Of a stretch of 64,000 nucleotides of DNA, positions 40,594-64,000 are shown in pieces. Numbering within the stretch: the stretch's first letter is position 1; every line of letters begins with the position of its first letter. The DNA comes from an uncultured Acidobacteriaceae bacterium (lineage in GTDB: Bacteria; Acidobacteriota; Terriglobia; Terriglobales; Acidobacteriaceae), in the NCBI GenBank assembly GCA_963774565.1, contig CAVZFP010000009.1, forward strand, positions 64,349 to 128,348. Reading direction: 5' to 3'. The position numbers were made by a program, and so were the translations under genes. The notes under the pieces were generated by a model, which was not told the DNA's origin, did not search any database, and saw only the letters and a program-made list of their open reading frames with translations.

Positions 40594-41922
40594 ATGGTGA
40601 TCGGCCTGAACCACCGCACCGCACCGCTAGCCATGAGGGAACGTTTTTGGATCGGCGAAACGCGACGCTACGAAGTCCTGCGGCAGCTAAGTAGCGCCGA
40701 AGGCATCGAAGAGGTTGTCGTTCTATCGACCTGCTGCCGAACGGAATTCCTGGTATGGGCCAGCGAGCCGACTCTGGCGGCGAATTCGCTGCTCCACTTT
40801 CTGGGTGTCGAGCACGGGTTGAAGCTGAAGGAGTGGGAGCACTTCTACCGCCTGCTGGATGAATGCGCCCTGACTCATATTTTTCAAGTCACCTGCGGCC
40901 TCGATTCCGTGGTATTGGGCGAGCCCCAGATTCTGGCACAGGTGAATGCGGCGTGGGAGCAGGCGCGAACCGTAGGTGCCGCAGGCCGCTTCCTGAGCGC
41001 GGTGCTGGAAAAAGCCTTGAGCATATCTAGCCGAGTGCGTCATGAAACGGCAATTGAGGATCTGACCGTCTCGATTCCGACGGCAGCCCTCGAACTTACC
41101 CGCGACATTTTCGGATCTTTGACTGGCCGCAGAATTTTGCTGCTGGGAACTGGGGAAATTAGCGAACTGACGGCCCGCGAGATGGTCGACAGAGGGGCCG
41201 GTTCGGTGGTGGTGATCGACCAATCGCCGACGCGAGCCCAAGAATTGGCGGAGAAGTTGGGAGCAACCGCGGCTACCCTGGCTGATCGCTGGAACTGCAT
41301 GCTGCGCGCGGATATCGTAATCAGCGCGACCGGCTGCCCGCATGTGGTTCTGACTCGCGAGGAAGCGGAGAGAATCGCAGTCGAACGCAACCGTGTGCCA
41401 CTGCTCCTGCTGGATATCGGCATGCCGCGCGACGTGGAGCCCGATGTACGCCGGGTCGACGGAATTCTGCTCTATGACTTAGACGGACTGGAGCGGGCGG
41501 TCAAGAACAATGCCAACGACCGTACGGCTGCGGCCGCGGAAGCGGAAAAGATTGTTGCTGCGGAAGCCCAAGCTTTCCGCGGAAAACTGCAGGCGGAAAG
41601 CGTGGTGCCGACGATTGTGGCGCTGCGCCAGCGCCTCGATGAAATTTGCCGGCAGGAACTGGAGTCCTTCACAAAAGAGCGGGGGCCCTTTACGCGGGAG
41701 CAGGATCAATCACTTCACGCAATTACGGCGCAGGTCATACAGAAGATTGCCAGCTCCCTGGCTCGCGAACTTAAGGAAGTTCCAGAGAAGGAGGAACAGG
41801 AGCGGATGACCGCCGCGGTCACACGCCTATTCCACCTGCAATCGCCGCAACGGGCGGCTGCCGGCACCATATCGGAGAGAGAACATGACCGAAGGAAAGA
41901 CCAGAGAGTTGCAATCCCGTAA
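40594..41922 (+). CDS. hemA: Glutamyl-tRNA reductase
   Basis: ORF 40552-41922, with the likely start at ATG 40594 (MVIGLNHRTAPLAMRERF). It has the catalytic-Cys region VLSTCCRTEF, GEPQILAQV, and the NADPH-binding LLLGTGEISEL. Confidence 0.9.
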   Translation: MVIGLNHRTAPLAMRERFWIGETRRYEVLRQLSSAEGIEEVVVLSTCCRTEFLVWASEPTLAANSLLHFLGVEHGLKLKEWEHFYRLLDECALTHIFQVTCGLDSVVLGEPQILAQVNAAWEQARTVGAAGRFLSAVLEKALSISSRVRHETAIEDLTVSIPTAALELTRDIFGSLTGRRILLLGTGEISELTAREMVDRGAGSVVVIDQSPTRAQELAEKLGATAATLADRWNCMLRADIVISATGCPHVVLTREEAERIAVERNRVPLLLLDIGMPRDVEPDVRRVDGILLYDLDGLERAVKNNANDRTAAAAEAEKIVAAEAQAFRGKLQAESVVPTIVALRQRLDEICRQELESFTKERGPFTREQDQSLHAITAQVIQKIASSLARELKEVPEKEEQERMTAAVTRLFHLQSPQRAAAGTISEREHDRRKDQRVAIP

Positions 41923-42580
41923 ACCGGTCGCAAGAGGACCTGTCGGAGATCTTGCGAGCGACAATTCAACGAAACCGTGGACAGATCGGCAAGCCTATTT
42001 GCTGGCGGTCTTCTGCCTATTACTGGGAGTGGCGCTGGGATATCTGTTTCGTGGATCAGCGTCGCCCGTGGTAGCGCGGTCGGCGGGCCCGACGACTACT
42101 CAGCAGGGAACCGACTTCCAAAAGCAGCTGCCTGATTCCAACGAGCAAGCTGCCTTGGCGCAGGCGGCGGCACCGCTGCTCGATGCGGTGAACAAAGATC
42201 CCAACGACTTCGACTCGTTGGTGAAACTTGGCAACCTGTTTTACGACGGAAAGCAATTCCCCAACGCAATCCAATACTATGCACGGGCGCTCGCCATTCA
42301 TCCGGATAATCCGGATATTCGCACCGACATGGGCACGGCTTACTGGTACACCGGGAATGCCGACAAAGCCCTGGAAGCAATGGAGACGTCTCTGAAATAT
42401 CGGCCGGGGCATCCGCAAACCCTGTTCAACCTAGGTTGGGTGCGCTGGCAGGGCAAACAAGATCCCAAGGGCGCGATCGAGGCGTGGCAGCAATTGCTCA
42501 AGGCAAATCCAGACTATCCGCAGCGGCAGCAGGTCGAGCAGTACATCGCCAAGGCAAAAGAGCACGCTTCACGGGGCTAA
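41885..42580 (+). CDS. TM-anchored TPR-repeat protein (CcmI/NrfG-like chaperone architecture), paralogue of 61655-62446
   Basis: Intact 231-aa ORF with one TM helix (AYLLAVFCLLLGVALGYLF), a low-complexity linker and three TPR units. It aligns clearly with the C-terminal half of the 61655 gene (LGNLFYDGKQF.../VGNLYRITHQF...; RTDMGTAYWY/RTDMASCLFY; NLGWVRWQGKQD/NLGLVRWKGKSD). Confidence 0.75.
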   Translation: MTEGKTRELQSRKPVARGPVGDLASDNSTKPWTDRQAYLLAVFCLLLGVALGYLFRGSASPVVARSAGPTTTQQGTDFQKQLPDSNEQAALAQAAAPLLDAVNKDPNDFDSLVKLGNLFYDGKQFPNAIQYYARALAIHPDNPDIRTDMGTAYWYTGNADKALEAMETSLKYRPGHPQTLFNLGWVRWQGKQDPKGAIEAWQQLLKANPDYPQRQQVEQYIAKAKEHASRG

Positions 42581-42631
42581 ACAATTTCGATCCATTGGCG
42601 CTCTTTCATAAAAACTCATAGCGGCGCCACC

Positions 42632-42658: not shown

Positions 42659-42694
42659 GCTTCTGGAAGCGCCGGTGAATAACGGAGATCGCTT

Positions 42695-44183: not shown

Positions 44184-44258
44184 GCTCTTTTAGCTTACTA
44201 CGGAAGGGGCTGGGGATGGCACGCGGGCTTGTTCTAGTCGTGCCCAGGCTGCGGATGG

Positions 44259-44459: not shown

Positions 44460-44595
44460 AATAAACGGGGGAAGCCACCACTTTGCGGCAGAAGTCCGCG
44501 AGTGCTACGGCGATGTTTCACCATCAATGGAGCGGTCTGATCGCAGCAGCGATTACCGAAGACAGCTAGCCTGACGTACCCTTCCCGGTGTCCAA

Positions 44596-45191
44596 TTGAA
44601 TTGCGTGCGTCCACCCCCATCCACAACGGCTTCCGCAAAGGTTTCGAAGCCTTGGAGGATTACCCTCCCGGCTTTAATGTTAGTCTTCTCCGCGCTTCTC
44701 ATGCTGCTTGCCACAAAGGAACAGCCGATGCTGCGAAAGATGGGCACGGACTGGGAAACACCAGCTACGATTGTCAATTCCCTAATCAATGGCCCCGGCT
44801 ATTATCTGACCGCTCCGATTCCGATACCGATACCACTCGCTCTGAACGAACGGCTCATGACGGAAGTAGGTTACTCGGGATCGCCGTTTTCTGGTTCCTG
44901 ATCGGATTGTCAATTGACAGGCGAAGGCGCGGTCAGAGCCTTGAACAGCAACATCCAATTCCGATTGGGGTTTGGTTTACGTTTTGTGCTCTTGTCTGCG
45001 GCGTTCTTGGTTTTGGTCTGGCAGTCGTTGAATTTCGCAATGCAGGCTTCTGGGGCCTTATCGCCAAATATCCACTTCGATCTACCGGCTCGATGGCGCT
45101 GGGTTTCGTCGTCTGGTTGCCAGTGTTCTGCGGTTACTTTTGTAGAAGGGCACTCATCGCCGCACGGCAGAGCCTTAAACCAAGAGCCTGA
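44596..45191 (+). CDS. Hypothetical membrane protein, with one apparent frameshift (~44880); start uncertain
   Basis: ORF 44596-44901 (TM LPALMLVFSALLMLLA...) continues into ORF 44601-45191 (LLGIAVFWFLIGLSIDRRRRG...IGVWFTFCALVCGVLGFGLAVVEF...ALGFVVWLPVFCGYFC). Confidence 0.35.
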
Positions 45192-45313
45192 CGCTCACAC
45201 GTCCGCCCACTGAGATGTTGATTTTTTCCAATCATCGCTAACTGGCCCTTACCGCTCAATGACGTGATTGGTACGCTAGGAAAACGTTCCGCGTACCTCG
45301 TTTCAGTAGGAAC

Positions 45314-47969: not shown

Positions 47970-47990
47970 ACACTTCCTCCGTAGCCGGAC

Positions 47991-49457: not shown

Positions 49458-49635
49458 ATCTTTCCTTTCCCTTCATTCGGACAATGCACGTTCCGCTCCA
49501 ACTTCGTGCAATCCCCACAATTCGTTTTGGTTCAACGGGTTGCGCTGCGGGGTGAGTATTTGTGTCCGACCGCGGTTGAGCCATTACACTCACGTGCGAA
49601 GTTGGTGCGCTGCGTTTTCACCCACCGCTCAAGTG

Positions 49636-49651
49636 TGTGATTTCAATCACA
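49636..49651. promoter_or_regulatory. Perfect CRP/FNR-family palindrome TGTGA-N6-TCACA in the divergent resB / 16-haem cytochrome control region
   Basis: tgtgatttcaatcaca is a 7-2-7 perfect inverted repeat. It also contains the FNR-like TGAT-N4-ATCA core. It lies ~180 nt from each divergent start codon. Confidence 0.5.
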
Positions 49652-49828
49652 AAAGCGGATAAGGGGCGTGCGTTATTTCCACCAGTGGGAGTGCGGCAGA
49701 AAGCCCATTCAGGGCTGGACTCGGGTCTGTGAAAATTCGCAACATCGATAGCCCCACCCTTGAAGTGACTGTGAGGCAAACACTTACAGATTCTTAGAGA
49801 GCCAGTCGCCCGCGGCCAAAATTAGGAG

Positions 49829-51370: not shown

Positions 51371-52659
51371 TGTCTGCACACCGCAAATCAAACTGCACCC
51401 GCAAGCTTTGGACTCTGATTCTGTTCGCTCTGGCGCTCGCCTCCGCGGTGCCGGCCCATGCGGACAAGAAGAAGTCTGCTCCGGCCACGGGAAACGTCAA
51501 GCTCGGCGATCAGCGCAGCAAGGCATATTTCGATCTCAGCAAGATCGTGTGGCCGAATCCTCCGGCGATCGCGCGGATTAAGTTTGTCGATCTGTTTACC
51601 GGACAGAAAGTCGATCCTAATCTGTTCTCCAAGAAGAACCAGAAGACGAAACAAAAATGGATGGACCGCCTGGCGGGCGACCAACAGACGGAAGAAATCA
51701 AAATCAAGGATCTGCCTTTCCAGTTAATCCGGACTTACGGAGTAGCGGTCGATTCCAAGGGCCTGATTTACGCTGCGGACCAAGGCGTGAGCGCGATCTT
51801 CATCTTCAACACCGAGACCAAGGCGGTCGAGCTGATTGCCAACGGAAAACAGGTGCATTTCGGCGCAGTGAGCGGCATGGCCCTAGATGACAACGATCGC
51901 CTGTTTGTGACTGACGTCGGTCTGCGCCGTGTTGACGTATTCAAGCCGGGAACGCACGAGTTGGAGACCGTTTTCGGTGGCGACGTCCTCGCCAAGCCCG
52001 CCAGTATCGCCATCGATACCGAGAACCGGTTTATCTATGTCGTTGACACGCAGAACGACGTGGTGGACGTGTTCGATGCCGACAGCTTCAAGCTGCTGCG
52101 GAAGATCGGCACGCCGAGCAAGAAGCACACGCTGACCGCCCCGGGAACTTTCTCCCTGCCGATGGGCGTCGCGGTTGACAAAGACGGCAATGTTTACGTC
52201 ACCGACACTTTCAACGACCGCATAGAGATCTTCGACGCCGACGGCGGTTTTATCAGCATGTTCGGCAAGAACGGCGATGGGCCCCAGGATTTTGAGCGGC
52301 CCAAGGGAATCGCGGTCGATGGCGATGGCCACATCTGGGTTGCGGATTCCGCTCAGGACCGGATCAAGGTTTTCGATAAAGACGGCCGCTTGCTGATTTA
52401 TTTCGGTGAGCACGGCGAATATCCCGGTCGCTTCATGGGCGTTTATGACATAGCGATTGACAAGAACAATCGGGTCTTCACTTCCGAAATGTTTCCCGGT
52501 CGCGTGCAGATGTTCCGTTACATCACCGACGAGGAAGCCGCTGCGGAAAAGAAGCGGCGCGAGGATGAGTCCGAACAGAAGCATCCCGCCGCTCCGGCAC
52601 AGAAGCCGGTCAGCGAAGCGGTGCAGAGTAACGCGGCAAAAGATTCTGCGGCGAAGTAA
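51370..52659 (+). CDS. NHL-repeat six-bladed beta-propeller protein, exported (429 aa)
   Basis: The ATG at 51370 overlaps the cytochrome stop as TAATG. It has the signal peptide KLWTLILFALALASAVPAHA and repeated NHL units (P.GIAVD..G.IYV.D....RI.VFD). The N-terminal 174 aa of ORF-track entry 50848-52659 is an out-of-frame overlap and is not part of the gene. Confidence 0.85.
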   Translation: MSAHRKSNCTRKLWTLILFALALASAVPAHADKKKSAPATGNVKLGDQRSKAYFDLSKIVWPNPPAIARIKFVDLFTGQKVDPNLFSKKNQKTKQKWMDRLAGDQQTEEIKIKDLPFQLIRTYGVAVDSKGLIYAADQGVSAIFIFNTETKAVELIANGKQVHFGAVSGMALDDNDRLFVTDVGLRRVDVFKPGTHELETVFGGDVLAKPASIAIDTENRFIYVVDTQNDVVDVFDADSFKLLRKIGTPSKKHTLTAPGTFSLPMGVAVDKDGNVYVTDTFNDRIEIFDADGGFISMFGKNGDGPQDFERPKGIAVDGDGHIWVADSAQDRIKVFDKDGRLLIYFGEHGEYPGRFMGVYDIAIDKNNRVFTSEMFPGRVQMFRYITDEEAAAEKKRREDESEQKHPAAPAQKPVSEAVQSNAAKDSAAK

Positions 52660-52845
52660 GGCAGTCTGAAGGAGCTTGCGATGAAAAGCGAAGCGAACAA
52701 CCGGTTGCAACGAGCCGCAACAAGTTCTCGGCAGTCCATGGCTGCCGAAGAACAAGCGTCGGGCAAAAGCCCGGCTCTTGGATCCAGACGTACTTGTACA
52801 GCTTTATTTGTGTTGCAGCACAATCCTAAGGAGGTTTCGAAACTT

Positions 52846-53734
52846 ATGAAGAAAGCGATGTTAGTTCTCTTGGTAGTATGCGGCGTCGCTGCTATGGCGA
52901 TGGCGCAAGCTGGGACCATCAGCAATACGACAGACGTCCTCGGCGCCCACCTCGGCTACGGCCGTGGCTGCGTCATGTGCCACGCTCCGCACAGCGGTCC
53001 TGCCGGTAACGGCAAGACCGTCAGCGATTCTCAAGCTGGCAAGTTTGCTTTGTGGGGCCAGGATCTTACCCCGCTGTACGGCGCAAACCTTGACGTTCAG
53101 CGGCGACGGCAAGGCCACCTACGCTGTCACACTGCCGGCGCAGGGCACGATCACCAGCGCCCATGACGCCAACACCATCATCCTGTTCTGCCTGAGCTGC
53201 CATGATGGCAACGTTGCCCCGGCTACTCACATGACGGGAACGACGGTTGAGACCCTGCCAGTCGTCGGCGGCAACGCTCCCACTTTCCTGGGCAAGGACG
53301 GAACGGGCGCAACCAACCCGTATCAGAACGACCACCCGGTGGGCGGCGCAGCAATCGTCAGCTGCGGCGGACAATACAACTGGGATTGCACTGGTGGCAA
53401 TACGGTTGGAATCACGATGGCTGGCGCTACTCACGGCGGACAGTTCCTGACGAACTACGGTGGCTCGTTCTGGAACACTGGCACCGTCAACGCGACCAAC
53501 GTCAAGCTGGCCACCTTCGGCACAGTCGTGACCGCAGTGACCTGCACCACCTGCCACGATCAGCACAGCATGACCGTGTTCACCAACAACGTCGGCAGCT
53601 TTGCCACGAGCTTCTTTGTTCGCGGCAACTACATGCCACAAACCGGCGGCAACAACGCGGCGCAGTTCTGCCGCAACTGCCACGGCGGCGAGTCGAACGA
53701 ATTGCACAACGTGAATGGCGTTCCGACCACCTAG
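52846..53734 (+). CDS. Small exported tetrahaem c-type cytochrome (~296 aa, Gly/Thr/Asn-rich), with one apparent 1-nt frameshift (~53087)
   Basis: The RBS aaggagg (52828-52834) precedes the ATG at 52846. The signal peptide is MKKAMLVLLVVCGVAAMAMA. ORF 52681-53166 joins ORF 52964-53734 at ...LYGAN|LTFSGDGKATY... The four CxxCH motifs are CVMCH, CLSCH, CTTCH and CRNCH. Confidence 0.8.
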
Positions 53735-53753
53735 GCTGTGTTGTTTTGAACCC

Positions 53754-53784
53754 TGGGGGAGGGAAGTTCCTCCCCCAATTTCTT
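53754..53784 (+). terminator. Strong hairpin (attenuator or partial terminator) directly after the tetrahaem gene
   Basis: tgggggagg-gaagtt-cctccccca is a 9-bp GC-rich stem, followed by aTTTcTT. It lies 12 nt before the PPIase ATG. Confidence 0.55.
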
Positions 53785-53795
53785 GGAGAAAGATC

Positions 53796-54815
53796 ATGAA
53801 GTGCCAGCTCTTAATTTCGATCGTGTTCTTGGCGGCCATCAGCCCGGCTTGGGCGCAGCTTGTCAGTTCGCACGCTTCCACCCTGCCCACGCAGCCCGCG
53901 GCCAGCGCCATGGAAGCAGCCAGCAAGCCTGTGGCGCGAGTAAATGGAGCGGTCCTGACAGACCGTGACCTGATACGCGAGGAGTACACGATTTTCCCTT
54001 ACGCGCGCCAGCATAACGGCGTCCCGAAAGGGATGGAAGCAGATATCCGTGCCGGCGCCATGAAGATGATTGTCTTTGAAGAACTGGTTTACCAGGAAGC
54101 GGAACGCCGGAAGCTGACCGTGCCACCCTCCCGTTTTCGTCAGGCCGAGGTCGCCTTCCGCAAGCAGTTCACGAATCCGCAGGAATATCAGGAGTTGCTC
54201 AACACCGAGTTCAAGGGTTCCAAGGCGCTGCTCGATTCCAAGATCCAGCGCTCGCTGCTGATCGAAACCATGTTGAAACAGGAAGTGGAGGACAAAGCCT
54301 ACATTCCCATGGCCCAAGCCCGCACTTTCTATGACAAGAACCCAGAGCGGTTCCGCGTTCCGGAGTCGTTTGCGATGCAAACGATTTCGATCATTCCGCC
54401 CAACAACGCGAGCCCGGAACAGGTGAAGGAAGCGCGCAAAAAAGCGGACAACGCTCTGCGCCAGGCCAAGCTGACCAAGAGCTACGACGACTTTGGCCTG
54501 CTGGCCGAAAAGCTTTCCGAGGACGACTACCGGGTCATGATGGGCGATCACAAGGCGGTTGACAAGGCCAAGCTGCCGCCGCAGGTGTTGCAGGCGGTAT
54601 CGAGCATGCAACCCCAGCAAATGAGCGGCCTTATCGACATCGGGAATAACGGGTACACGATTGCGCGGCTGAACGAGCACGTCCCCGAAGGCAAGCGGAC
54701 CTTTGAACAGGTGAAGGACAGCATTCGCGAGTACCTGAAGAAGCAAAAGACGGAAGAACTGCGCAGCGCGCTGGATAAGCGGCTGCGGAAGAACGCGAAG
54801 GTAGAGGAGCTCTAA
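53796..54815 (+). CDS. SurA-N / PpiC-type (parvulin) peptidyl-prolyl isomerase, exported
   Basis: ATG at 53796 within ORF 53715-54815. It has the signal peptide MKCQLLISIVFLAAISPAWA, a SurA-like chaperone N-domain (VARVNGAVLTDRDL...) and a parvulin-like region (FAMQTISIIPP...). Confidence 0.75.
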   Translation: MKCQLLISIVFLAAISPAWAQLVSSHASTLPTQPAASAMEAASKPVARVNGAVLTDRDLIREEYTIFPYARQHNGVPKGMEADIRAGAMKMIVFEELVYQEAERRKLTVPPSRFRQAEVAFRKQFTNPQEYQELLNTEFKGSKALLDSKIQRSLLIETMLKQEVEDKAYIPMAQARTFYDKNPERFRVPESFAMQTISIIPPNNASPEQVKEARKKADNALRQAKLTKSYDDFGLLAEKLSEDDYRVMMGDHKAVDKAKLPPQVLQAVSSMQPQQMSGLIDIGNNGYTIARLNEHVPEGKRTFEQVKDSIREYLKKQKTEELRSALDKRLRKNAKVEEL

Positions 54816-54817
54816 TC

Positions 54818-56665
54818 GTGAAGACTGTCGTCAAACGCGGGATTCTGGTGGCCAACCTGATTATGCTGATGGCCACGTTGCCCGCGTGGGCGCAGGTTGA
54901 GGTCGGCGAGAATACCAGAATGAACCTGAGTGGTAATCTCTCCTTCGGATACACCGCTGATTACTCCAACCTGTTGCCATCCGACCATGGCATGACCCCT
55001 GGCGGCAATGCCGATCTGAGCGGGTATTATTACAACCCGAACTTCCTCTCATTTGACGTGCAGCCCTTCTATAACCAGTCCAGAGATAATTCTCAGTATC
55101 AATCCGTATTTCAATCCGGAGGAGTGAGCGGCAACGCATCCATCTTCTCCGGCAGCCACTTTCCCGGAACGGTGAACTACAGTAGGGTCTACAACAACGA
55201 AGGCGGGATCACCCTGCCCGGCGTGGGTAGCCTGGTTACCCGCGGGAAGAGCGATAATCTTGGCCTGGGTTGGGGAATTCATATTCCCGGTTACCCCAAC
55301 GTTCAATTCCAATTTGCCGACGGCGGGAGCAACAGTTCAGTGTTTGGGACCAGTGCAAACAGCACATACCGCTCTAAACTGTTCGGGGTGGCTGTATCGG
55401 ACCGATGGGCCGGCTTCGACCTCAGCGGCGATTATCACCGCAACAACATTCACTCCCTCACACCTGACTTTCTTGCGGGCGAAGGTCCCGTGGCTTCGGC
55501 AGGCTCATCCAATTCCTACGACTTTACCCTTGGGCATAAATTGCCGTTCAATGGTGCGTTTTCGGCTGCGGCCGGCAGGTCCGATGTCAGTTCTGAATCG
55601 AGTGGCGAGCAGTTTAACGGAACCATCGATACGGTCGGTTCCGGCGTAAGCTTCGAGCCTATCGCCAATCTGAATCTGGGCGTCACCGAGCAGTACACCA
55701 ACAATCTGGAAGGGTCGATTTACCAGTCGGTGTTTTCTGGGGGAGTAGTGCCGTCGTCATTGCTTGACTATTCGACCCACTCGCTCGACATCAACGGACA
55801 CGCCAACTACACCGTGCCATCGATTCATCTGACGTTTGGGGCCATTGCAGACCGTCGCCAGCAGGAAATATTTGGGGTTTCACTGTCGGCTGACATGTTT
55901 AGTGAATCGGTGATCTACGGAGCCGATTTGCTGGGCGGCTATTTCAATGCCAGCGCGGCTGTGACCCAAACCCAGATCATGGGCGTAAACGGGGGGGCGC
56001 ACTCCCTGGGGCAGTTCGAAACCGTCTCCTACTCGCGTAAGTACCAGAATTGGACCCTGAACAGCTCGTTCAACTACTCACACAATACGCAGACCGTTCT
56101 GATTGGTTACACGGCTTCCGGGTACGGATATTCAGCCGGAATTGGGCGCAGAATTGGGGCCTATTCGTTTTGGAGTGTGAACGCCGTCGAGACGAAATCA
56201 AAATTCAGCAACTCCTCGGGATCGGAAAACCTAAGTCAAAGCTATTCGACCTCTCTCACCTTGAAGCGGTTTAGCATGAGCGGGAGTTATGCGAAGGCCG
56301 ACGGCAATTCGCTGCTTACGCCAACGGGCCTGACGCCAGTGACAACTCCCATCCCAGTTTTGACCCCGGCGCAGGAGATTGTGTTTGGCGGAAAATCCTA
56401 CTCTTTCGGCGCCTCGACCACTCCGCTACATGGGCTCGTCCTGTCGGGCTCTTACTCTTCGACAAAGAGCAACACGACAGCGAGTTATGCCACTTCCCAG
56501 AACACGACTGCACAGTTGAATACGATGCTACAGTACAAGGTAAGGCAGTTGTGGATCACGGGCGGCTATTTGAGGCTGCAACAGGGGTTTAGCATTACTG
56601 GCCAGCCCGCCGCTTCGTATTCGTCGTTCTTCATGGGGATTACGCGGTGGTTCAAATTCTTCTGA
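54818..56665 (+). CDS. Predicted outer-membrane beta-barrel protein of unknown family (615 aa)
   Basis: Intact ORF with a GTG start 2 nt after the PPIase stop. It has the signal peptide ...LIMLMATLPAWAQ and long runs of alternating hydrophobic/polar residues rich in Gly/Ser/Tyr/Asn. The C-terminus ...GITRWFKFF has a terminal aromatic residue, typical of BAM substrates. Confidence 0.65.
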   Translation: MKTVVKRGILVANLIMLMATLPAWAQVEVGENTRMNLSGNLSFGYTADYSNLLPSDHGMTPGGNADLSGYYYNPNFLSFDVQPFYNQSRDNSQYQSVFQSGGVSGNASIFSGSHFPGTVNYSRVYNNEGGITLPGVGSLVTRGKSDNLGLGWGIHIPGYPNVQFQFADGGSNSSVFGTSANSTYRSKLFGVAVSDRWAGFDLSGDYHRNNIHSLTPDFLAGEGPVASAGSSNSYDFTLGHKLPFNGAFSAAAGRSDVSSESSGEQFNGTIDTVGSGVSFEPIANLNLGVTEQYTNNLEGSIYQSVFSGGVVPSSLLDYSTHSLDINGHANYTVPSIHLTFGAIADRRQQEIFGVSLSADMFSESVIYGADLLGGYFNASAAVTQTQIMGVNGGAHSLGQFETVSYSRKYQNWTLNSSFNYSHNTQTVLIGYTASGYGYSAGIGRRIGAYSFWSVNAVETKSKFSNSSGSENLSQSYSTSLTLKRFSMSGSYAKADGNSLLTPTGLTPVTTPIPVLTPAQEIVFGGKSYSFGASTTPLHGLVLSGSYSSTKSNTTASYATSQNTTAQLNTMLQYKVRQLWITGGYLRLQQGFSITGQPAASYSSFFMGITRWFKFF

Positions 56666-57751
56666 AATCGGTTTTCGGTGAGACGTGCTGGAAGCGAGCA
56701 CTGGTTTGCGCCATGGCGCTGCTGCTGGCTCCGGTGCCGGGAGCAATCGGGAAGACCTCCAAGACGCAGCCCGTAGAAGTTCCCGAGTTGCTGCTGGAGG
56801 GTGGACGGCGGCTCACCTTTGAGCGCAGTTTCTGGTCTGAGCCCGAAGTGAAGATTAAGCGCGGCTTCTGGACCAAACTCATCGACATCGTGGCGGGCGC
56901 TCCCGACTTTCATGTCCTGATCAGTCCCTACGAAGTCGTGGAGGATTCCCGCGGCCGCATCATCGTGACCGATCCGGGAGCGGCCGGAATCCACATCTTC
57001 GACTTTGGACAGCAGAAGTACAAATTCATCTCGCGCGACCGAGATGACAACAACGGGCTGGTCACACCGCAGTGCGTCGCCGTGGATGCCGAAGACAACA
57101 TCTATGTGACCGATTCGGAGTCCGGCAAGATCTTCGTCTTCGAGCCCGGCGGAAAATTTCAGCGGACGATCGGCAGCCTGAAAGGCGGCGAAGGATATTT
57201 CAAGCGTCCGACTGGAATCGCCGTCGATTCCGCGGCGCAGCGCATTTACGTCACCGACACACTGCGCAACCAGATTTTCGTTCTCGACATGCAGGGCGAC
57301 GTGCTGCAGACCATTGGCAAAAACGGGGATCGGCAACGTCGAGTTCAACTATCCCACCGAGTTGCGCCTGTCGGGCAATCATCTGATCGTGGTCGATGCG
57401 ATGAACTTCCGCGTGCAGGTGCTGGACCGCTCGGGAAACTTCCTCTACGCCATCGGGCGCATTGGCGAAGGGCAGGGGCAGATGTTCCGGCCGAAGGGGA
57501 TCGGCGTGGATTCGGAAGGGCATCTGTACGTGGTGGAAGCGGTGCGCGGGTTAGTGCAGGTTTTCGACCAGGCGGGAAACCTTCTTTACTACTTCGGAGC
57601 GAAGGGGAGCGGCTTTGGAGAATTCCAGTTGCCCACCGGCTTGTGGATTGATCATAACGACCGTGTTCTGATTGTCGACTCGTATAACCGGCGAGTCCAA
57701 GTGTTTCATTATTTCGGGCTGGCAAAACAAACCGCGGGAGGTCAGCCTTGA
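56647..57751 (+). CDS. Second NHL-repeat beta-propeller protein, with one apparent frameshift (~57330)
   Basis: ORF 56647-57651 (...GRIIVTDPGAAGIHIFD...PQCVAVDAEDNIYVTDSESGKIFVFE...PTGIAVDSAAQRIYVTDTLRNQIFVLD) continues in ORF 57314-57751 (...NHLIVVDAMNFRVQVLD...PKGIGVDSEGHLYVVEAVRGLVQVFD...). Confidence 0.8.
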
Positions 57752-59776
57752 GATCGAGGCTTATTGCGGCGGCCGTCGTGTCGGTGCTGGCGAGTGAGAT
57801 GGCATTCGCGCAGATCTATACGGACGTGCTTGGAGCGCATAATATGTCGCCCGCCAGCGGATCTCCAATTACCGGGAATCTCGGCAGCCCGTGCCTGTAC
57901 TGCCACGCGCCACACTCGGGGATCGAAGGTACGGGCGGTGTGAGCGGAACTCCGCTGTGGAGTCAAAAACTATCAAGCGTGCAGTCGTACCAGACATATA
58001 CCAGCATCACGATGGTGAATAAAACCAATGCATCCCCACCGCTGGGGTCGAATAGCACGCTTTGCCTGAGTTGCCACGATGGCACGGTGGCACTGGGAAC
58101 GCTCACTCCCTATGGTCAGGTATCGATGTCGGGAACTCTCGCCGGGACGGCTGCGGATCTGGGAACGAATCTGCAGTCGACGCATCCATTTAACTTTGTT
58201 ACGCCGCTGCAACCGGCTCCCGACATATGGCCGTCGTTGGGCGCCAGTCCCCCTTCGACCCAAGATACGACGGGTGTAGTGCGGCTCATCAATGGCAATG
58301 TGGAGTGCGGAAGTTGTCACAATCCGCATGTGCAGAACATCGATTCCAGCTCTGATTTCCTGGTGATTGATAACTCGCAAAGTGCGCTCTGCTTGGCCTG
58401 CCACAACACGGTTCCGAGCGGAACTGGGATGGGACTGGCAGCGAGTGTGGCTCGTCCCGCTACAGCGGCCGGCGTAACGTCGAATTCAACTTCAAAGACA
58501 GCCTCGGTGAACCCGCTTGCACGATGGCGGGAGAGCATCCATGCCACCGCGACCAACCGGGTTGCGAGCCAGATTTCGCCCGAGGCGGTCGGGCTTGTCT
58601 CCAAGCGAATGACTCGCGTCGGTGCCCTTGGACCCTACACCAACCTGCGCAAGAACGGGTGTTTATCCTGCCACGCGACACACAACTCGTCCACGAAGGT
58701 CTTGCTGCGAGCACTGGACGATCAGACCTGCATCGTCTGTCACAGCGGCGGCACTTCTGTGTCGCCTCCGGCTCCGAACATCGCCGCCGAGATGGCGTCG
58801 CCGAAAATCAGCCACGTGATCGCCGGCGGCTGCGAAAAACAGTTCGCACTCGGCGCGCGAGAGCGAGTTGCTGAATCACAATCGCCATGCCGCTTGCGTG
58901 GATTGCCACAATCCCCATGCCACGAAACAGGTCGGCTTGAGTTTTCCCGCGCCTCCGCTAATACGTCCGTCGCAGGAGGGGGTGAGTGGCATCAGCGCCA
59001 CCGACGGCCGCAGTATTGTCTCTCCCGCCACGAATCAATACGAGAACTGCCTGCGCTGCCATGGAACGAGTGCGGGCAAATCAGAGAACGTGGCGGTGTT
59101 TGGGTATCTGCCCAACCGGTTGGTCTCGGGGCCGGATCCTTGGAACGTGATCCCGCAATTCGGGTTGACATCCACGTCAAGCCATCCCGTGATACATGAT
59201 CGTCGCAGTCCATTTCCGCAGCCCAGTCTTCGCTCGAACATGCTTGATCTGGACGGAGTCCGGCAAGGGCGCACCCTGGGCGTGCGTATCTTGTGCACGG
59301 ACTGCCACAACAGCGACGACAACCGGGAATTCGGCGGAACTGGACCGAATGGACCTCACGGCTCGAAGTATTCCCACATCCTGGAACGTCGCTACGATAT
59401 GAGCCAAGCGCCGGTGCCGGGCCAGCCCATTACGAATTTGATCGTACCGCCCAATCTGACTGCGACGGGCAACTTCGCGCTTTGCGCGAAGTGCCATGAC
59501 TTAGCAACCATTGTCAGCAATTCCAGCTTTAGTGAGCATGCTCGCCACATCAACGATGGGTTTTCCTGCTCGGTGTGTCACACTTCGCATGGAATGGGAT
59601 CACAAATGGCTACTGTATCCGGCGAGCGCATGGTGAATTTCGATCTCAACGTCGTTGCCCCCAACGGCAGGAGCCCAATTACGTACCGGAAATCGACGAA
59701 TTCGTGCAGCCTGACCTGCCATGGGCACGCTCATGGGTCCGCTGGAACGGGCGAACCGGTGAGACTGCGGCCGTAA
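57748..59776 (+). CDS. Exported multihaem c-type cytochrome with 11 CxxCH motifs plus one CxxxCH, with one apparent frameshift (~58840)
   Basis: The TTG start overlaps the NHL stop as TTGA. The signal peptide is MRSRLIAAAVVSVLASEMAFA. ORF 57748-59199 carries CLYCH, CLSCH, CGSCH, CLACH, CLSCH and CIVCH. ORF 58868-59776 carries CVDCH, CLRCH, CTDCH, CAKCH and CSVCH, and also CSLTCH. Confidence 0.8.
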
Positions 59777-59927
59777 AACCTCTGGGCTTTTCTTCGGTCA
59801 GGGGTTCTAGGACAATTCCCGGTTGAGCCTTACACAGACCCGGCGACGATCTCTTCGGGAGGGTTATAGGGTAGAAATACGCTCTACGATCCTAATCAGC
59901 GTTCTCGAAGCTTGTTTTCCATCTCGT

Positions 59928-61349
59928 CTATTTCTCTTTTCGATAGCAGTACAGCGTATCGCTGCGGTTCGGGTCGCGGGCGATGAGTAGCATGGTGTCA
60001 AGGGCACTGGCCAATCCGGATGGGACGGTGTCGGGAAACTTGTCGTTGGACAGCAGATATCCACCTGGCTTTAGCATGGTTGCAATATTGGCGCGGGCCA
60101 GCGACTGCTCGAAAGCGTCGTAGTAGATGAAGATGTTGGTCCCGATAATCAGATCGAAGCCCTGCTGCGGATCGAGAGGCAGGCGCTGGTAGACGATGTT
60201 CATGTCCAGCGGCGTGAGGCGGCGCACGATGCCGGGGCGAATCTTCACCGCCCGCGTTTGCGTCTCTGCCGCGGCACTGGGCACAGCGATGGGCGGCACC
60301 GGTTCGCCGATTTGATCCCCCAGCTTCTGCCAGTATTCGACGAAGCTCCTGCGATATTCCTCTGTCTGCCGCGCTGCGGTGTTCCAGGGAAGCTGCACCG
60401 TGTACGAGCGTCCGGCAACAGCCTTCTCCTTCGCCCGCGCCACGTGGAAGTTCACTTCAGAACTGATGTCGAGGGTATAGAGGTCGACCGTGTCCGGGGT
60501 CGCGACTCCCAGGCGAATGAGCGAGTCCAGCACGGCAAAGGGCTGGATCGTCTGCGGAGGATAGAAGTCATTGCCTTTTTCCTTGTTGGCGAAGTCGAGC
60601 CCCGGACCGACGATGGCGATTCTCTGCACGCTTCCAGGCTTGAGCAGGCCTTTCTCCACCATGCGGTGGAAATGCTGATCGAGCAGGAAGTCCGGCCACA
60701 GATTCGTGTCGAGCGAGATGCCGCGATCTTTAAAAAGCTGCGAACGGGTTTCTTCGCTGGCTGAGGCGCGGTAGCGCAGAATGTCGTCCCGCATGCGGGC
60801 CAGGTTGTCGAGCAGGTATCTCTTGATCCGGGCACGGTCCTCCTGCGTTTTGAATGAGAAGCCCTTTTTCTTGAGGAAAGCGCGCATCCGCGCCATGCCA
60901 TCGCTGGCGTTTGGCGTCCAAGTCTCAGGCGCGGACAGCGAACGGATCAGATCGTTTGCCCGGTTCTCGGCGAAGGAATCGACCAGGGAGCTCTTGCCGA
61001 AACGCAGCAGGTAGTCATCGTCGATCCGGTACTCCTTGGTGAAAGTGACGCCGAAGCGCAGCAGGTTCGTGAGCGTGTCTTCTTCCCCGGAGTTGAGGCG
61101 TTCGCGGACTTCGCGGTCCGATTGTTGCACCCAGGCGGACCATTTCGCGGCGTCCAGGTTGGACGTTGGTTTCAGTTCCGCAGGAAGGGAATCGGAAAAT
61201 GCAGCCACCACCGGTTGCGCCGCTTTGAACGAGATGAATTCGCTCTTCGTCGCTTGCTGAGGCGCCGCGAACCCCAACGACGCGCCAAACATCAATTCAC
61301 AGCCAATGGAGACGAGGATGCCCCACCGAAATCTGTCGTTCGCAATCAT
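59928..61349 (-). CDS. Class I SAM-dependent methyltransferase-fold protein with an N-terminal signal or anchor segment
   Basis: ORF 59928-61391, with the likely start at MIANDRFRWGILVSIGCELMFGASLGFAAPQ. The Rossmann motif I-like segment is RIAIVGPGLD. Later motifs are DLIIGTNIFIYYD and LKPGGYLL. Confidence 0.6.
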   Translation of the reverse strand: MIANDRFRWGILVSIGCELMFGASLGFAAPQQATKSEFISFKAAQPVVAAFSDSLPAELKPTSNLDAAKWSAWVQQSDREVRERLNSGEEDTLTNLLRFGVTFTKEYRIDDDYLLRFGKSSLVDSFAENRANDLIRSLSAPETWTPNASDGMARMRAFLKKKGFSFKTQEDRARIKRYLLDNLARMRDDILRYRASASEETRSQLFKDRGISLDTNLWPDFLLDQHFHRMVEKGLLKPGSVQRIAIVGPGLDFANKEKGNDFYPPQTIQPFAVLDSLIRLGVATPDTVDLYTLDISSEVNFHVARAKEKAVAGRSYTVQLPWNTAARQTEEYRRSFVEYWQKLGDQIGEPVPPIAVPSAAAETQTRAVKIRPGIVRRLTPLDMNIVYQRLPLDPQQGFDLIIGTNIFIYYDAFEQSLARANIATMLKPGGYLLSNDKFPDTVPSGLASALDTMLLIARDPNRSDTLYCYRKEK

Positions 61350-61654
61350 AGTCACGCCCCTTGCCGGAGGCGACCGCATTCCGATGACCAAAGATGATGA
61401 GAGGCGCGGTTAATCTGTGTCAATTGTCTGTCTTTGTTTCTTGGAGTTAGTCAGTCGGGAAGAAGACGGATCGCGAGTCCGGGGCAAAACCCATCGCCGA
61501 GCACTCCCGGTGCGCTTTTTCTCGCAACGAGGGTGTCTTTTGGCGCGAGTTGTTCCCGCTTTTTCGGCTCGTCGCTTCTGACCAGGCGCACAAAATCAAA
61601 CACTTAGCCGCGATGCGTGCTGTGGAACCGAGAATGCTTCTTGCTTCTTTGGAA

Positions 61655-62446
61655 ATGAATACGGAACCCATTCAGACAAACCACTCTGCCGCTGCCTGGC
61701 ATGCCCGGGAAGTCTACGTCATGGCAGCGGTCTGCCTGATTCTGGGCGTAAGTCAGAGATTTTTGCAGCTGTGCGATCGCGCCATCGACATCACCCTGGT
61801 AGAACAGGCACGACGCCATATCGGTACGAGCACCTACATTTTTCGGGTTCACCTCGAGCGCCTTCTCGTACTAGTGGGCTACCTGGTCCGTGGGTCTACC
61901 TCGGCGGCTGCCACAAGCGCCACCGCCGCCAGTTCGTCACAGCATGATGCCGCCACGAGCCCTGCTCCGCAGCAAATGCCTTCGCTCGATGACGTGAAGC
62001 GCATGGCGGATAAGCAAGGGGCGCCTCTGTTGGCGAAACTCCAGAGTGATCCGAACAATGCCGACTTACTGAACCAGGTCGGAAATCTCTATCGCATCAC
62101 CCACCAGTTCCAGAGGGCCGTTTCGTACTACCAGAAGGCGCTCGAGGTGAACCCGAAAAATGTAGGTGCTCGTACCGATATGGCGTCGTGCCTGTTCTAC
62201 CAGGGTGATGTCGATGGCGCGATCGCACAGCTGCAAAAATCTCTGACTTACGATCCTAAACATGCAGGGACACTTCTCAACCTGGGCTTGGTTCGCTGGA
62301 AGGGCAAAAGCGACGCTGCCGGAGCCATCGCTTCTTGGGCCAAGCTGCTGAAGTACTATCCCAACTACGAAAACAAGGACATGGTTCAGAAGTTGATCAG
62401 TGAAGCCAAAGCGCACCCTGCCAGGAACCCGCTCCAAAGTGAGTAA
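61655..62446 (+). CDS. TM-anchored TPR-repeat protein (paralogue of 41885-42580) carrying an in-frame 40-codon inverted-duplication insert in its TM segment
   Basis: ATG at 61655 within ORF 61550-62446. The sequence is MNTEPIQTNHSAAAWHAREVYVMAAVCLILGV, then the 40-aa insert SQRFLQLCDRAIDITLVEQARRHIGTSTYIFRVHLERLLV, then LVGYLVRGS..., then the TPR units. Confidence 0.7.
   Translation: MNTEPIQTNHSAAAWHAREVYVMAAVCLILGVSQRFLQLCDRAIDITLVEQARRHIGTSTYIFRVHLERLLVLVGYLVRGSTSAAATSATAASSSQHDAATSPAPQQMPSLDDVKRMADKQGAPLLAKLQSDPNNADLLNQVGNLYRITHQFQRAVSYYQKALEVNPKNVGARTDMASCLFYQGDVDGAIAQLQKSLTYDPKHAGTLLNLGLVRWKGKSDAAGAIASWAKLLKYYPNYENKDMVQKLISEAKAHPARNPLQSE
61747..61866. repeat. Left arm of a perfect 120-bp inverted repeat (reverse-complement copy of 62133-62252)
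   Basis: Base-by-base comparison shows that 61747-61866 is the exact reverse complement of 62133-62252. The ORF track confirms it. Minus-strand ORF 61604-61852 encodes NPKNVGARTDMASCLFYQGDVDGAIAQLQKSLTY, identical to the plus-strand TPR sequence downstream. Confidence 0.95.
62133..62252. repeat. Right arm (native TPR coding copy) of the perfect 120-bp inverted repeat
   Basis: See the left arm. The two arms are separated by 266 bp. Confidence 0.95.
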
Positions 62447-62580
62447 ACACGGTTGGCGGGCAAACTCAGCCTGCTTAACCTTGTGCCATTCCCGCTGGAC
62501 TGTGGTTCGCTGAAGTTGGCCTGGTCCTTGTTAATGCTGGTGAGGGAGGAGTTACAGTTTTTAGGTTTTGCAAAGCTGCT

Positions 62581-62807
62581 TTAGCGATGGATACCGGTGT
62601 GGCACGCGCAGAGCAGAGGCTAATCAAGTTCTCTTCCGAATCGCCTCCCGAGTGACTGCGGAACTGTTTGTGATGGACCTCTAGGTTTGACATCGCGCCG
62701 CACGACTGACAGCGCCAGCCATCCCGACGTAACACTTCCTGCAGCAGTTTTGCGTACGACTCTGGATCCAGTCGCTGATGGATTGGTTTCTGGCCAATCG
62801 GACTCAC
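62581..62807 (-). CDS. Small HNH endonuclease (~75 aa), with one apparent 1-nt deletion near the C-terminus
   Basis: ORF 62475-62807 reads ...WRCQSCGAMSNLEVHHKQFRSHSGGDSEENLISLCSAR|ATPVSI... Shifting one base restores LCSARCHTGIHR and a stop at 62581-62583. That gives the full C-x2-C...HH...N...C-x-x-H HNH pattern. Confidence 0.75.
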
Positions 62808-63502
62808 GATTCCTTCTCACCCAAGCCTTCACGGAATACTCGCTTCCGTTCACCAGGCAGGAACTTGAAGAATCTCGTCATCGAAAAAAGCAAAGTCTTC
62901 GGATCTCCGTTGTCCAGATTGGCCCCGGCCAGAAAGTCCGCACACATCATTTCCAGACAGTAGCTGCGGGAACGGTCGCTCCCCGGCATCAGGGCCGCCA
63001 TGTCCATCGCTTTCTCAATGACCGGCATCTGGCTCTGGTACAGTTTGAACCAGATGATCTCCCACGGTTCAGTTTCCCGCCCAGCTAAGTCCTTCTCGAC
63101 CTCCCGCTTAAACTGCTCCTTGGGCATCTCTCGTGCGCGGTGCAACCAGGTTGCACAATCGAATTGCCGCCGGTCCCTCCTTGCCAGCTTGGCTAGTTCG
63201 ATCCCCTTCGACCAGCCCACTTCCTTCAGTTGCTCTCTCGCCTGCGGCGGCAGGTGTTCATGAATCGACCTCAGGTAGTACGCCTTCCTCCTCGATTCGG
63301 GGAACCGCCTTTCCAGAAACTCGTCGAAACTCTTCAAATTCTCCAGTCGCCAGTATTGTCCCGCCCGCACCTCGCACAGGTAGCGTCCCAGGTCGACGAA
63401 CTTGGTGTCCCGCTCCGTCTCCTTCCGCTGTTCCCACGCCAGAATCTCGTCAATCTTGCCCAGTACAAATGCGGCACGGCGACGATGGATCTTCGGCGGC
63501 AT
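62804..63502 (-). CDS. Hypothetical protein, possibly DNA-binding (ParB/KorB-HTH-like region); co-transcribed with the HNH gene
   Basis: ORF 62804-63583, with the likely start at MPPKIHRRRAAF (63500-63502). It overlaps the HNH start as ATGA. The segment GRYLCEVRAGQYWRLENLKSFDEFLERRFPESRRKAYYLRSI resembles ParB-type HTH regions. That resemblance is from memory and has not been searched. Confidence 0.5.
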   Translation of the reverse strand: MPPKIHRRRAAFVLGKIDEILAWEQRKETERDTKFVDLGRYLCEVRAGQYWRLENLKSFDEFLERRFPESRRKAYYLRSIHEHLPPQAREQLKEVGWSKGIELAKLARRDRRQFDCATWLHRAREMPKEQFKREVEKDLAGRETEPWEIIWFKLYQSQMPVIEKAMDMAALMPGSDRSRSYCLEMMCADFLAGANLDNGDPKTLLFSMTRFFKFLPGERKRVFREGLGEKES

Positions 63503-63867
63503 GGGCGGATACTCAGTAATTAAGCTCGTTAATCCAAGCAAGACTGTCGGCTCCTGGACGCCGCACCAGAGAGGTGTCGACATGGGATGGGTTCCCGGTG
63601 TTTACGCCCGCCGGGATGCCGGTGAAATAGAAACTAAAGTCGCACGAAACGGTGTCACCGTGATGGCACGAACGATGTGCGACATTGCTACCTCGTCAAA
63701 GCTTTGTGTACGACCCGTCTATGGAAGCTGGGAGCAATGCGCCGTCCTGGGGCAGGACAGCGCATTGCTACATCGATAAGCGACACTCTATTGTCCATCG
63801 CAAGAGATCCCGCATTTGGCTTTACCGGGAGATCGTGCAGCGAGCGATTCAATCAGGTTCTCGTTCC

Positions 63868-64000
63868 TTACCAGATGCGCACGCGGTCCGGTGAAGCGAG
63901 GTAAAGCTTCTCTCCCGGCTGCACATTGAAAGCGGCGTACCAGGCATCGATATTGCGCACCGTGGCGGCCCGATACTCGCCAGGAGCATGCGGGTCCGTC
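63868..64000 (-). CDS. C-terminal end of an unidentified gene entering from the right edge
   Basis: Manual minus-strand translation gives ...TDPHAPGEYRAATVRNIDAWYAAFNVQPGEKLYLASPDRVRIW followed by TAA (63868-63870). It looks coding, but the product is not recognisable. Confidence 0.3.
   Translation of the reverse strand, partial: TDPHAPGEYRAATVRNIDAWYAAFNVQPGEKLYLASPDRVRIW

What the first reader, a model, noticed from the sequence alone, without database searches (positions are those of the whole stretch)
61747..62252. Perfect 120-bp inverted duplication inside a single TPR gene, inserted in frame into its TM helix
Positions 61747-61866 are the exact reverse complement of 62133-62252, 266 bp downstream in the same gene. 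The upstream copy is exactly 40 codons. It interrupts the membrane anchor: ...AAVCLILGV, then the insert, then LVGYLVRGS.... Comparison with the paralogue at 41885 shows the anchor should be contiguous. The insert reads through without a stop.

Zero mismatches over 120 bp in a window otherwise full of indels means the event or artefact is very recent. I see four possible explanations:
- A fold-back or chimeric-read assembly artefact.
- A genuine recent inverted duplication from template switching.
- An inversion switch in which recombination between the arms would flip the 266-bp segment.
- A deliberately long mRNA stem.

This structure is not explained by any annotated feature.
Basis: seen in the sequence. 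Interest (0 to 1): 0.7.

Follow-up and report, generated by a model that had tools for sequence, protein, structure and literature searches.

The report
Recent inverted self-copy inside TPR gene
One strain of a soil-type Acidobacterium carries a 120-base backwards copy of part of a membrane-anchored TPR gene, pasted into the same gene's membrane anchor; this is most likely a one-off replication copying error that damages the gene, not a designed switch.

Summary
Positions 61747-61866 are the exact reverse complement of 62133-62252 (120/120). This is the only inverted repeat of 30 nt or more in the 64-kb window. It adds 40 in-frame codons inside the TM helix of a CcmH/NrfG-like TPR gene (61634-62446).

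A metagenomic orthologue that is 98.6% identical (L001) has the intact empty site, CTGGG|CGTACTAGTG. So do 8 more distant orthologues, the paralogue at 41885, and 187 other family members. The insert carries the window's own alleles at 3 SNPs, so it arose after the split from L001.

One junction has a 4-nt microhomology (CGTA) sitting in a pre-existing 13-14/20 quasi-palindrome (Monte Carlo P = 6.5e-5). That is the signature of polymerase template switching.

An independent k=31 assembly (Logan, run ERR11718639) has a contig ending exactly at 61750. A de Bruijn simulation puts the end there only if insert and empty alleles coexist in the reads.

The insert lowers anchor hydropathy from 2.61 to 1.73 and creates a 120-bp mRNA stem. 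Flipping the 266-bp spacer gives a premature stop. No recombinase domain was found in the window.

Verdict: a recent, lineage-specific, probably polymorphic template-switch duplication that likely damages the gene. A library artefact is not excluded. A switch or a designed stem is unsupported. Interest is low.

The parts
61634..62446 (+). Membrane-anchored TPR gene (CcmH/NrfG-like), 270 aa as deposited (P0001). The ancestral form is 230 aa.
   Evidence: ORF. The exact 270-aa product is in the NCBI/ENA collection. Pfam TPR_2, TPR_17 and TPR_CcmH_CycH match residues 134-244.
61747..61866 (+). Inserted inverted copy (left arm). It is 40 codons read in an antisense frame of the TPR repeat: SQRFLQLCDRAIDITLVEQARRHIGTSTYIFRVHLERLL.
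   Evidence: 120/120 reverse complement of 62133-62252. Absent from L001, from 8 other orthologues, and from 187 other family members.
62133..62252 (+). Donor segment (right arm). It encodes the native TPR residues ...KALEVNPKNVGARTDMASCLFYQGDVDGAIAQLQKSLTY.
   Evidence: Conserved in all orthologues. It differs from L001 at 62146, 62158 and 62236, and the insert carries the window alleles at all three sites.
61867..62132 (+). 266-bp spacer between the arms: second half of the TM helix, Ala/Ser/Thr-rich linker, first TPR helix. It would be inverted by recombination between the arms.
   Evidence: The length is not a multiple of 3. The inverted form reads ...ERLLVVRNGPLELVGDAIEISDLVQ*.
61747..61750 (+). 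CGTA junction microhomology. It is repeated at 61867-61870, and its complement TACG lies at the donor end, 62249-62252.
   Evidence: L001 positions 1-129 align to window 61622-61750 and positions 126-2262 align to 61867-64000, a 4-nt overlap. See also the alignment.
61731..61750 (+). Target-side half of a pre-existing quasi-palindrome. It is complementary to 62249-62268 at 13/20 positions (14/20 in the L001 ancestor-like sequence). Probable priming site of the first template switch.
   Evidence: Monte Carlo probability of a 4-nt terminal match plus at least 13/20 for random site pairs is 6.5e-5.
62249..62268 (+). Donor-side half of the pre-existing quasi-palindrome.
41885..42580 (+). Paralogue (38% aa identity) with an uninterrupted anchor, located next to hemA.
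59928..61349 (-). Divergent 473-aa hypothetical gene. It is not part of the event. It anchors the independent Logan contigs used to test the junction.

Best explanation
This is a single, recent template-switch mutation in the DNA of this strain.

**Proposed mechanism (inferred).** During replication or repair synthesis, the growing + strand reached ...CTGGGCGTA-3' at position 61750. It then left its template and re-annealed to the + strand about 500 nt ahead, at TACG (62249-62252). A pre-existing 13-14/20 inverted homology helped it anneal there. It copied 116 nt backwards to 62133, then returned to the original template at CGTACTAG.

**Result.** A perfect 120-bp inverted repeat now sits inside the gene, 266 bp upstream of its source.

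**Why it reads through.** The length happens to be 3n, and two of the three frames of the copy are open. The gene is therefore translated through 40 antisense-encoded residues that split the N-terminal membrane anchor.

**Consequences.**
- The allele is probably hypomorphic or null.
- It coexists with the intact allele in the sampled population.
- It has no designed function.
- The arms are long enough for passive RecA-type inversion of the spacer, but that only truncates the protein.
For: **Shown**
- The copy is an exact reverse complement, and it is the only long inverted repeat in the window.
- L001 is 98.6% nt-identical in the gene and has the precise empty site.
- All 8 further orthologues and the paralogue, and 187 other family members, lack the insert.
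- A search of 5.8 billion protein clusters with the insert-containing N-terminus found no other carrier.
- The insert carries the window's alleles at the 3 sites where L001 differs in the donor.
- One junction has a 4-nt microhomology (P about 0.005). It lies within a 13-14/20 quasi-palindrome (P = 6.5e-5).
- The Logan assembly of run ERR11718639 has a 2057-bp contig carrying the exact neighbouring 473-aa gene at 402-1823, and a 46-codon partial gene at 1-138. The contig end therefore maps to window 61750 and the partial gene's start to the in-frame ATG at 61613.
- Logan uses k=31, drops singleton k-mers, and uses Minia3 (PMC12424806).
- A k=31 graph simulation ends that unitig at 61776 for the insert alone, at 61750 for insert plus empty allele, and nowhere for the empty allele alone.
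- In-frame read-through is unremarkable, with a chance of about 0.22.
- Hydropathy of the anchor falls from 2.61 to 1.73.

**Established knowledge**
- Template switching creates reverse-complement copies and perfect hairpin stems in one step (PMC8794818).
Against: - No reads could be examined.
- The DNA of the Logan contig was not retrievable. The junction argument therefore rests on coordinates, not sequence.
- The predicted downstream Logan fragment (62225-62446) is not on record. Other predicted fragments, including the 46-aa control, are absent from the protein collection, so this test was uninformative rather than confirmatory.
- The window's consensus is error-prone, with single-base frameshifts in a class II tRNA synthetase, a sigma-54 activator and nuo genes. 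The assembly is therefore not above suspicion.
- The second junction has only a 5/7 match with a terminal mismatch.
- From my own knowledge, a 116-120-nt copy across about 390-500 nt is larger than most described short-range template-switch events.
Confidence: 0.65

Rival explanations
1. The insert is a library or assembly artefact. It would be a double template switch by a polymerase in vitro (MDA, PCR or end-repair), or a chimeric long read, incorporated into a noisy consensus. The organism itself would have only the 230-aa gene.
For: - The window has several single-base frameshifts in conserved genes, so the consensus rests on error-prone data.
- The insert is seen in only one deposited contig.
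- In-vitro polymerases also switch templates at microhomologies.
- The arms are perfectly identical.
- The exact repaired full-length protein is not in the collection, and neither is any junction-spanning fragment.
Against: - A clean in-place insertion needs two switches in one molecule that restore the original template.
- An independent k=31 assembly of ERR11718639 breaks exactly at 61750. This requires k-mers of both continuations, each seen at least twice and surviving graph cleaning. The chance of a random break at that base is about 1e-3, given contigs of 2-4 kb.
- A de Bruijn misjoin cannot occur on a 4-nt overlap.
Confidence: 0.25
2. The structure is an intragenic inversion switch (a premature-stop type inverton). 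Recombination between the 120-bp arms would flip the 266-bp spacer to toggle the TPR protein.
For: - The anatomy fits: inverted repeats inside a CDS flank a short segment, and the flipped form gives a premature stop. Intragenic invertons of the premature-stop class are known (bioRxiv 10.1101/2023.03.11.532203).
- From my own knowledge, 120 bp of identity is sufficient for RecA-dependent inversion.
Against: - The 'ON' orientation already carries a 40-aa antisense insert that breaks the anchor.
- The repeat is absent from every relative, including one 98.6% identical.
- No recombinase or invertase Pfam domain was found in 58 of the 61 ORFs selected across the window. The remaining three are two short unscanned ORFs and the 776-aa Ser/Thr kinase, whose precomputed families include no recombinase.
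- In the one described case I read, the thiC inverton, the repeat is 11 nt.
Confidence: 0.04
3. The structure is a deliberately long mRNA stem (regulatory dsRNA or RNase III site) selected for function.
For: The predicted fold of 61700-62300 has a 120-bp stem, with MFE -381 kcal/mol against -215 for shuffles, z = -34.
Against: - The stem follows automatically from any perfect inverted duplication.
- There is no conservation and no covariation. The stem is absent from all homologues.
- No Rfam family matches in the window.
- It costs the protein its anchor.
Confidence: 0.02

Closest known systems
Template-switch mutations (quasi-palindrome-templated mutagenesis). Ripley's model; Dutra and Lovett in E. 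coli; Loytynoja and Goldman's four-point model; Monttinen and Loytynoja 2022 (PMC8794818).
   Same: - A reverse-complement copy of nearby sequence is written in one event.
- The switch is primed at an imperfect inverted homology.
- A perfect hairpin-forming repeat is created de novo.
- The ancestral state is recoverable from an outgroup.
   Different: - This is a net insertion of 116-120 nt, copied from about 390-500 nt away. Most described events are tens of nt within or next to an existing hairpin (this statement is from my own knowledge).
- It lies inside a coding TM helix and reads through.
Intragenic invertons (Chanin et al., 'Intragenic DNA inversions expand bacterial coding capacity', bioRxiv 10.1101/2023.03.11.532203).
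   Same: - Inverted repeats within a single CDS flank a short invertible segment.
- Inversion would introduce a premature stop.
   Different: - The repeat is 120 bp rather than about 11 nt, as in the thiC example I read.
- It is not conserved.
- No invertase was found.
- The reference orientation is itself disrupted.
- No read evidence for flipping could be obtained.
Larger inverted duplications formed by fork template switching: tandem inversion duplications in Salmonella (from memory) and ODIRA in yeast (PMC10766183).
   Same: Template switching between strands at short inverted homologies generates an inverted copy.
   Different: Those are kb-to-Mb amplifications with an inverted middle copy or hairpin-capped intermediates. 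This is a 120-bp insertion without amplification of the flanks.
Inverted chimeras from in-vitro amplification (MDA or PCR template switching; from memory, Lasken and Stockwell 2007).
   Same: They produce inverted junctions at short microhomologies.
   Different: - Those are usually single junctions, with the rest of the molecule staying inverted and each event unique.
- Here there are two junctions restoring the original template.
- The branch is visible in an independent k-mer assembly.

Membership tests
Template-switch mutation | The new sequence is an exact reverse complement of nearby sequence on the same molecule. | tested here: met
   120/120, 266 bp away.
Template-switch mutation | The ancestral state without the change is documented in close relatives, and one event explains all local differences. 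| tested here: met
   L001 has an empty site with no other change within 8 nt on one side and 30 nt on the other. All other relatives are also empty.
Template-switch mutation | Homology or microhomology is present at the switch points. | tested here: met
   The first junction has 4 nt within a 13-14/20 match, P = 6.5e-5. The second junction is weak, at 5/7 with a terminal mismatch.
Template-switch mutation | The change is present in genomic DNA molecules and is not an artefact. | tested here: inconclusive
   The Logan contig end at 61750 matches a mixture of insert and empty alleles. However, no reads or contig DNA were available, and fragment look-ups were negative.
Intragenic inverton | Inverted repeats flank a segment inside one CDS. 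| tested here: met
Intragenic inverton | Both orientations are observed in reads from one population. | not testable with these tools
   A k=31 graph cannot distinguish orientations: the insert-plus-flipped simulation gives the same unitig end as the insert alone. No reads were available.
Intragenic inverton | A site-specific recombinase or invertase is available. | tested here: not met
   No recombinase domain among 58 of the 61 selected ORFs scanned with Pfam. The neighbours are an HNH protein and hypotheticals. A recombinase encoded outside the window cannot be excluded.
Intragenic inverton | The repeat is maintained in related genomes (programmed, not accidental). | tested here: not met
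   It is absent from L001 (98.6% identical) and from 187 other family members.
Structured regulatory RNA | The structure is conserved, with covariation, across homologues, or it matches a known family. | tested here: not met
   There is no Rfam hit. One arm does not exist in any homologue.

The most novel reading that the evidence does not exclude
The allele could be a naturally segregating, newly born invertible cassette. In this reading, a single template-switch event has just created a 120-bp inverted-repeat pair inside a cytochrome-associated TPR gene. The population now carries empty, forward and (by RecA-mediated flipping) inverted forms. That would capture the de novo origin of an intragenic inverton or dsRNA element in the wild before selection has acted on it.
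Probability: 0.06. Interest if true: 0.55.

Novelty: new member of a known kind. Interest (0 to 1): 0.25.

Why it matters
As biology this is minor. It is one damaged allele of one of two paralogous TPR genes, in a conserved multihaem-cytochrome cluster of an uncultured Acidobacterium.

Its value is threefold:
1. It is an unusually clean and unusually long natural example of a template-switch insertion. The empty site, the donor, the priming quasi-palindrome and an apparent polymorphism are all recoverable.
2. It is an annotation warning. The deposited 270-aa protein contains 40 residues that are an antisense read of its own TPR repeat.
3. It illustrates how long perfect inverted repeats, the raw material for inversions and hairpins, can appear in one step.

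Tried and rejected
- **Exact look-ups of the repaired gene.** I tried four possible starts, and none is in the collection.
- **Exact look-ups of predicted Logan contig-edge fragments.** All were negative: spacer, downstream fragment, repeat unitig, empty-allele fragments, and also the 46-aa control. The test is therefore uninformative. The 46-aa fragment could not be looked up with the look-up of encoding contigs.
- **Scan of genome contigs for the exact empty-site 35-mer.** It found nothing. The window's own genome is not among the species representatives.
- **The look-up of encoding contigs for P0001, the HNH gene and the long form of the 259-aa ORF.** None is on record.
- **Literature search for ERR11718639.** No paper was found.
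- **Transposon or MITE with a 4-bp target duplication.** Rejected, because the inserted sequence is the gene's own reverse complement and CGTA is part of the donor.
- **DGR-type or retron-type repeats.** Rejected, because the repeat is inverted, perfect and not conserved.
- **Selection for read-through.** Rejected as evidence, because the chance of an open in-frame insert is about 0.22.
- **Rfam and tRNA scans.** Both were empty.

Full report
**1. The observation**

Positions 61747-61866 are the exact reverse complement of 62133-62252, at 120 of 120 positions, with 266 bp between them. A scan of the whole window for repeats of 30 nt or more finds no other inverted pair. This is therefore not a chance match.

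Both arms lie in one ORF. The product as deposited in NCBI/ENA starts at ATG 61634 and is 270 aa (P0001). The upstream arm is 40 codons, in frame and without a stop.

The upstream arm separates ...AAVCLILG(V) from (V)LVGYLVRGS. Deleting it gives LILGVLVGYLVRGS, which is collinear with LLLGVALGYLFRGS in the paralogue at 41885-42580.

The boundaries are ambiguous by four bases. CGTA stands both at 61747-50 and at 61867-70, and its complement TACG ends the donor.

**2. The gene**

Pfam finds TPR repeats and the TPR_CcmH_CycH domain in residues 134-244. JGI names relatives 'cytochrome c-type biogenesis protein CcmH/NrfG' or 'TPR repeat protein'.

The best genome hits are Acidobacteriota MAGs (Candidatus Solibacter, Acidobacteriaceae, Sulfotelmatobacter).

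The gene ends a cluster that is conserved in L002 and L010: PPIase, a 615-aa hypothetical, an NHL propeller, a multihaem cytochrome, then the TPR gene. The window also holds hemA, ResB, CcsA and a second multihaem cytochrome plus NHL pair.

**3. Relatives**

The 90% cluster of P0001 has one other member, P0002. It is 230 aa, exactly 40 fewer, from a JGI metagenome.

Its contig L001 aligns to the window with 10 mismatches in 705 gene positions, and it has the uninterrupted site CTGTTTCTGGG|CGTACTAGTGGGC. BLAST places L001 positions 1-129 on 61622-61750 and positions 126-2262 on 61867-64000. The two pieces share the four bases CGTA.

Eight further orthologues (51-60% aa identity) from genomes and metagenomes also have a contiguous anchor, as does the paralogue.

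Of 188 family members retrieved by two searches of 5.8 billion clusters, only P0001 has residues in the insert columns. One of those searches used the insert-containing N-terminus as the query.

Within the donor, L001 differs from the window at 62146, 62158 and 62236. The insert carries the window's bases at all three sites. The copy was therefore made from this lineage's own allele, after or around its split from L001.

**4. The junctions**

The 20 nt ending at the insertion point (TCTGCCTGATTCTGGGCGTA) match the reverse complement of the 20 nt starting at the donor's outer end (CCTGCATGTTTAGGATCGTA) at 13 positions, including the last four. In the L001 sequence the match is 14 of 20.

For random site pairs 100-1000 nt apart, a 4-nt terminal match has P = 0.005. 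A 4-nt terminal match together with at least 13/20 has P = 6.5e-5.

The other junction shows only 5 of 7 matches with a terminal mismatch.

This is the pattern expected when a 3' end primes on a nearby imperfect inverted homology, copies, and returns. That is a template-switch mutation, a process known to create perfect reverse-complement repeats in one step (PMC8794818). A de Bruijn assembler cannot misjoin on four bases.

**5. Is it in real reads?**

No reads were available, but there is an indirect test.

The exact 473-aa product of the divergent neighbour (59928-61349) is carried by a 2057-bp contig of the Logan assembly of run ERR11718639. The gene lies at 402-1823, and a 46-codon partial gene on the other strand lies at 1-138.

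Converting coordinates, position 138 falls on window 61613, an in-frame ATG of the TPR ORF. Position 1 falls on window 61750, the last base of GGGCGTA.

Logan builds k=31 unitigs, drops k-mers seen only once, and simplifies the graph with Minia3 (PMC12424806).

I simulated the k=31 graph:
- With only the insert allele, the unitig ends at 61776.
- With insert plus empty allele, it ends at 61750.
- With only the empty allele, it does not end there at all.
- Adding a flipped allele changes nothing.

The observed end matches the mixture. Logan contigs of this organism are 2-4 kb, so a random end at that exact base has a probability of about 1e-3.

A second run, SRR28062054, holds a contig 100% identical to window 59926-61430, but it stops short of the gene.

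Three caveats apply:
- The Logan contig's DNA could not be fetched.
- The predicted downstream fragment (62225-62446) is not on record.
- Look-ups of other predicted fragments failed, including the 46-aa control. Those tests are therefore uninformative.

**6. Assembly quality**

Several conserved genes in the window are interrupted by single-base frameshifts:
- A class II tRNA synthetase is split at about 16.3-16.4 kb by an extra G.
- A sigma-54 activator is split at about 43.14 kb by an extra base in GCGCG.
- The nuo genes appear only in pieces.

The consensus is therefore error-prone, as in a long-read assembly. This keeps a library or consensus artefact on the table, even though the region around the finding agrees perfectly with an independent contig.

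**7. Consequences**

- Kyte-Doolittle hydropathy (19-residue window) of the anchor drops from 2.61 (VYVMAAVCLILGVLVGYLV) to 1.73.
- As RNA, 61700-62300 folds with the full 120-bp stem, at -381 kcal/mol against -215 for shuffles. This follows automatically from the duplication.
- Inverting the segment gives ...ERLLVVRNGPLELVGDAIEISDLVQ*. The flipped form is truncated before the TPR domain.
- Two of the three frames of the insert are open. An in-frame, open insert has a chance of about 0.22 and says nothing about selection.
- No recombinase or invertase domain appears in 58 of the 61 selected ORFs scanned across the window. The immediate neighbours are an HNH protein and a phage-like hypothetical.
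- Rfam and tRNA scans of the window are empty.

**8. Comparison with known systems**

The event meets the defining features of a template-switch mutation:
- an exact reverse-complement copy,
- a documented ancestral state,
- a single event that explains the difference,
- homology at a switch point.

It is longer and longer-range than most described cases (that comparison is from my own knowledge).

It has the anatomy of a premature-stop intragenic inverton (10.1101/2023.03.11.532203). It fails the tests of conservation and of a nearby recombinase, and its 'forward' state is already damaged. It is not a conserved RNA structure.

**9. Verdict**

The best explanation, at about 0.65, is a recent, lineage-specific, probably still polymorphic template-switch inverted duplication that impairs a CcmH/NrfG-like TPR protein.

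A chimera made during library preparation remains possible, at about 0.25. A designed inversion switch or mRNA stem is unlikely, at 0.06 or less together.

This is a new instance of a known kind of mutation and of low general interest. It is useful mainly as a clean example and as an annotation caveat.

Noticed in passing
window 15647-17027 (+), junction near 16300-16420: A class II (Lys/Asp-type) tRNA synthetase is split into two ORFs by what looks like one extra G (…ATGAGCCTC-G-ACCCAGGAAGTC…). In an essential gene this probably means a consensus indel error.
   Followed up: partly
window 42695-44183 (-), around 43137: An NtrC-type sigma-54 activator is split. The receiver and AAA+ domains are in one ORF, and the AAA lid plus Fis-type HTH are in the next frame. 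The cause is one extra base in a GCGCG run.
   Followed up: partly
window 1230-8474 (-): Complex I (nuo) genes appear only as partial domain matches. Proton_antipo_M matches profile positions 83-194, NADHdh matches 185-298, and the 49-kDa subunit matches in 3 stretches. This suggests further frameshifts in this part of the contig.
   Followed up: no
window 40552-59199; L002 1-6630; L010: A cytochrome-c maturation and multihaem-cytochrome neighbourhood.
- hemA plus the TPR paralogue.
- CcsA and ResB (System II).
- Two cytochrome plus NHL-propeller pairs.
- PPIase.
The order PPIase, hypothetical, NHL, cytochrome, TPR is conserved in Candidatus Solibacter-like contigs.
   Followed up: partly
window 59928-61349 (-): A 473-aa protein with no Pfam or PHROG match sits between the cytochrome and the TPR gene here, but not in L002 or L010. 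An identical copy occurs in two unrelated-looking runs, ERR11718639 and SRR28062054.
   Followed up: partly
window 62475-63502 (-); L001 736-1764: A small HNH endonuclease gene overlaps the stop of a 232-aa phage-like hypothetical (phrog_17202). In L001 the same pair is present but broken into shorter ORFs. This looks like a decaying mobile remnant beside the TPR gene.
   Followed up: partly
window 63733-63769: A 17-nt inverted repeat with a 3-nt loop (AGCAATGCGCCGTCCTG / CAGGACAGCGCATTGCT) lies in the intergenic stretch near the window end. It may be a terminator-like hairpin.
   Followed up: no
L003 5926-7222: In an Acidobacteriaceae MAG, the two TPR paralogues lie in tandem. In the window they are 20 kb apart.
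   Followed up: no
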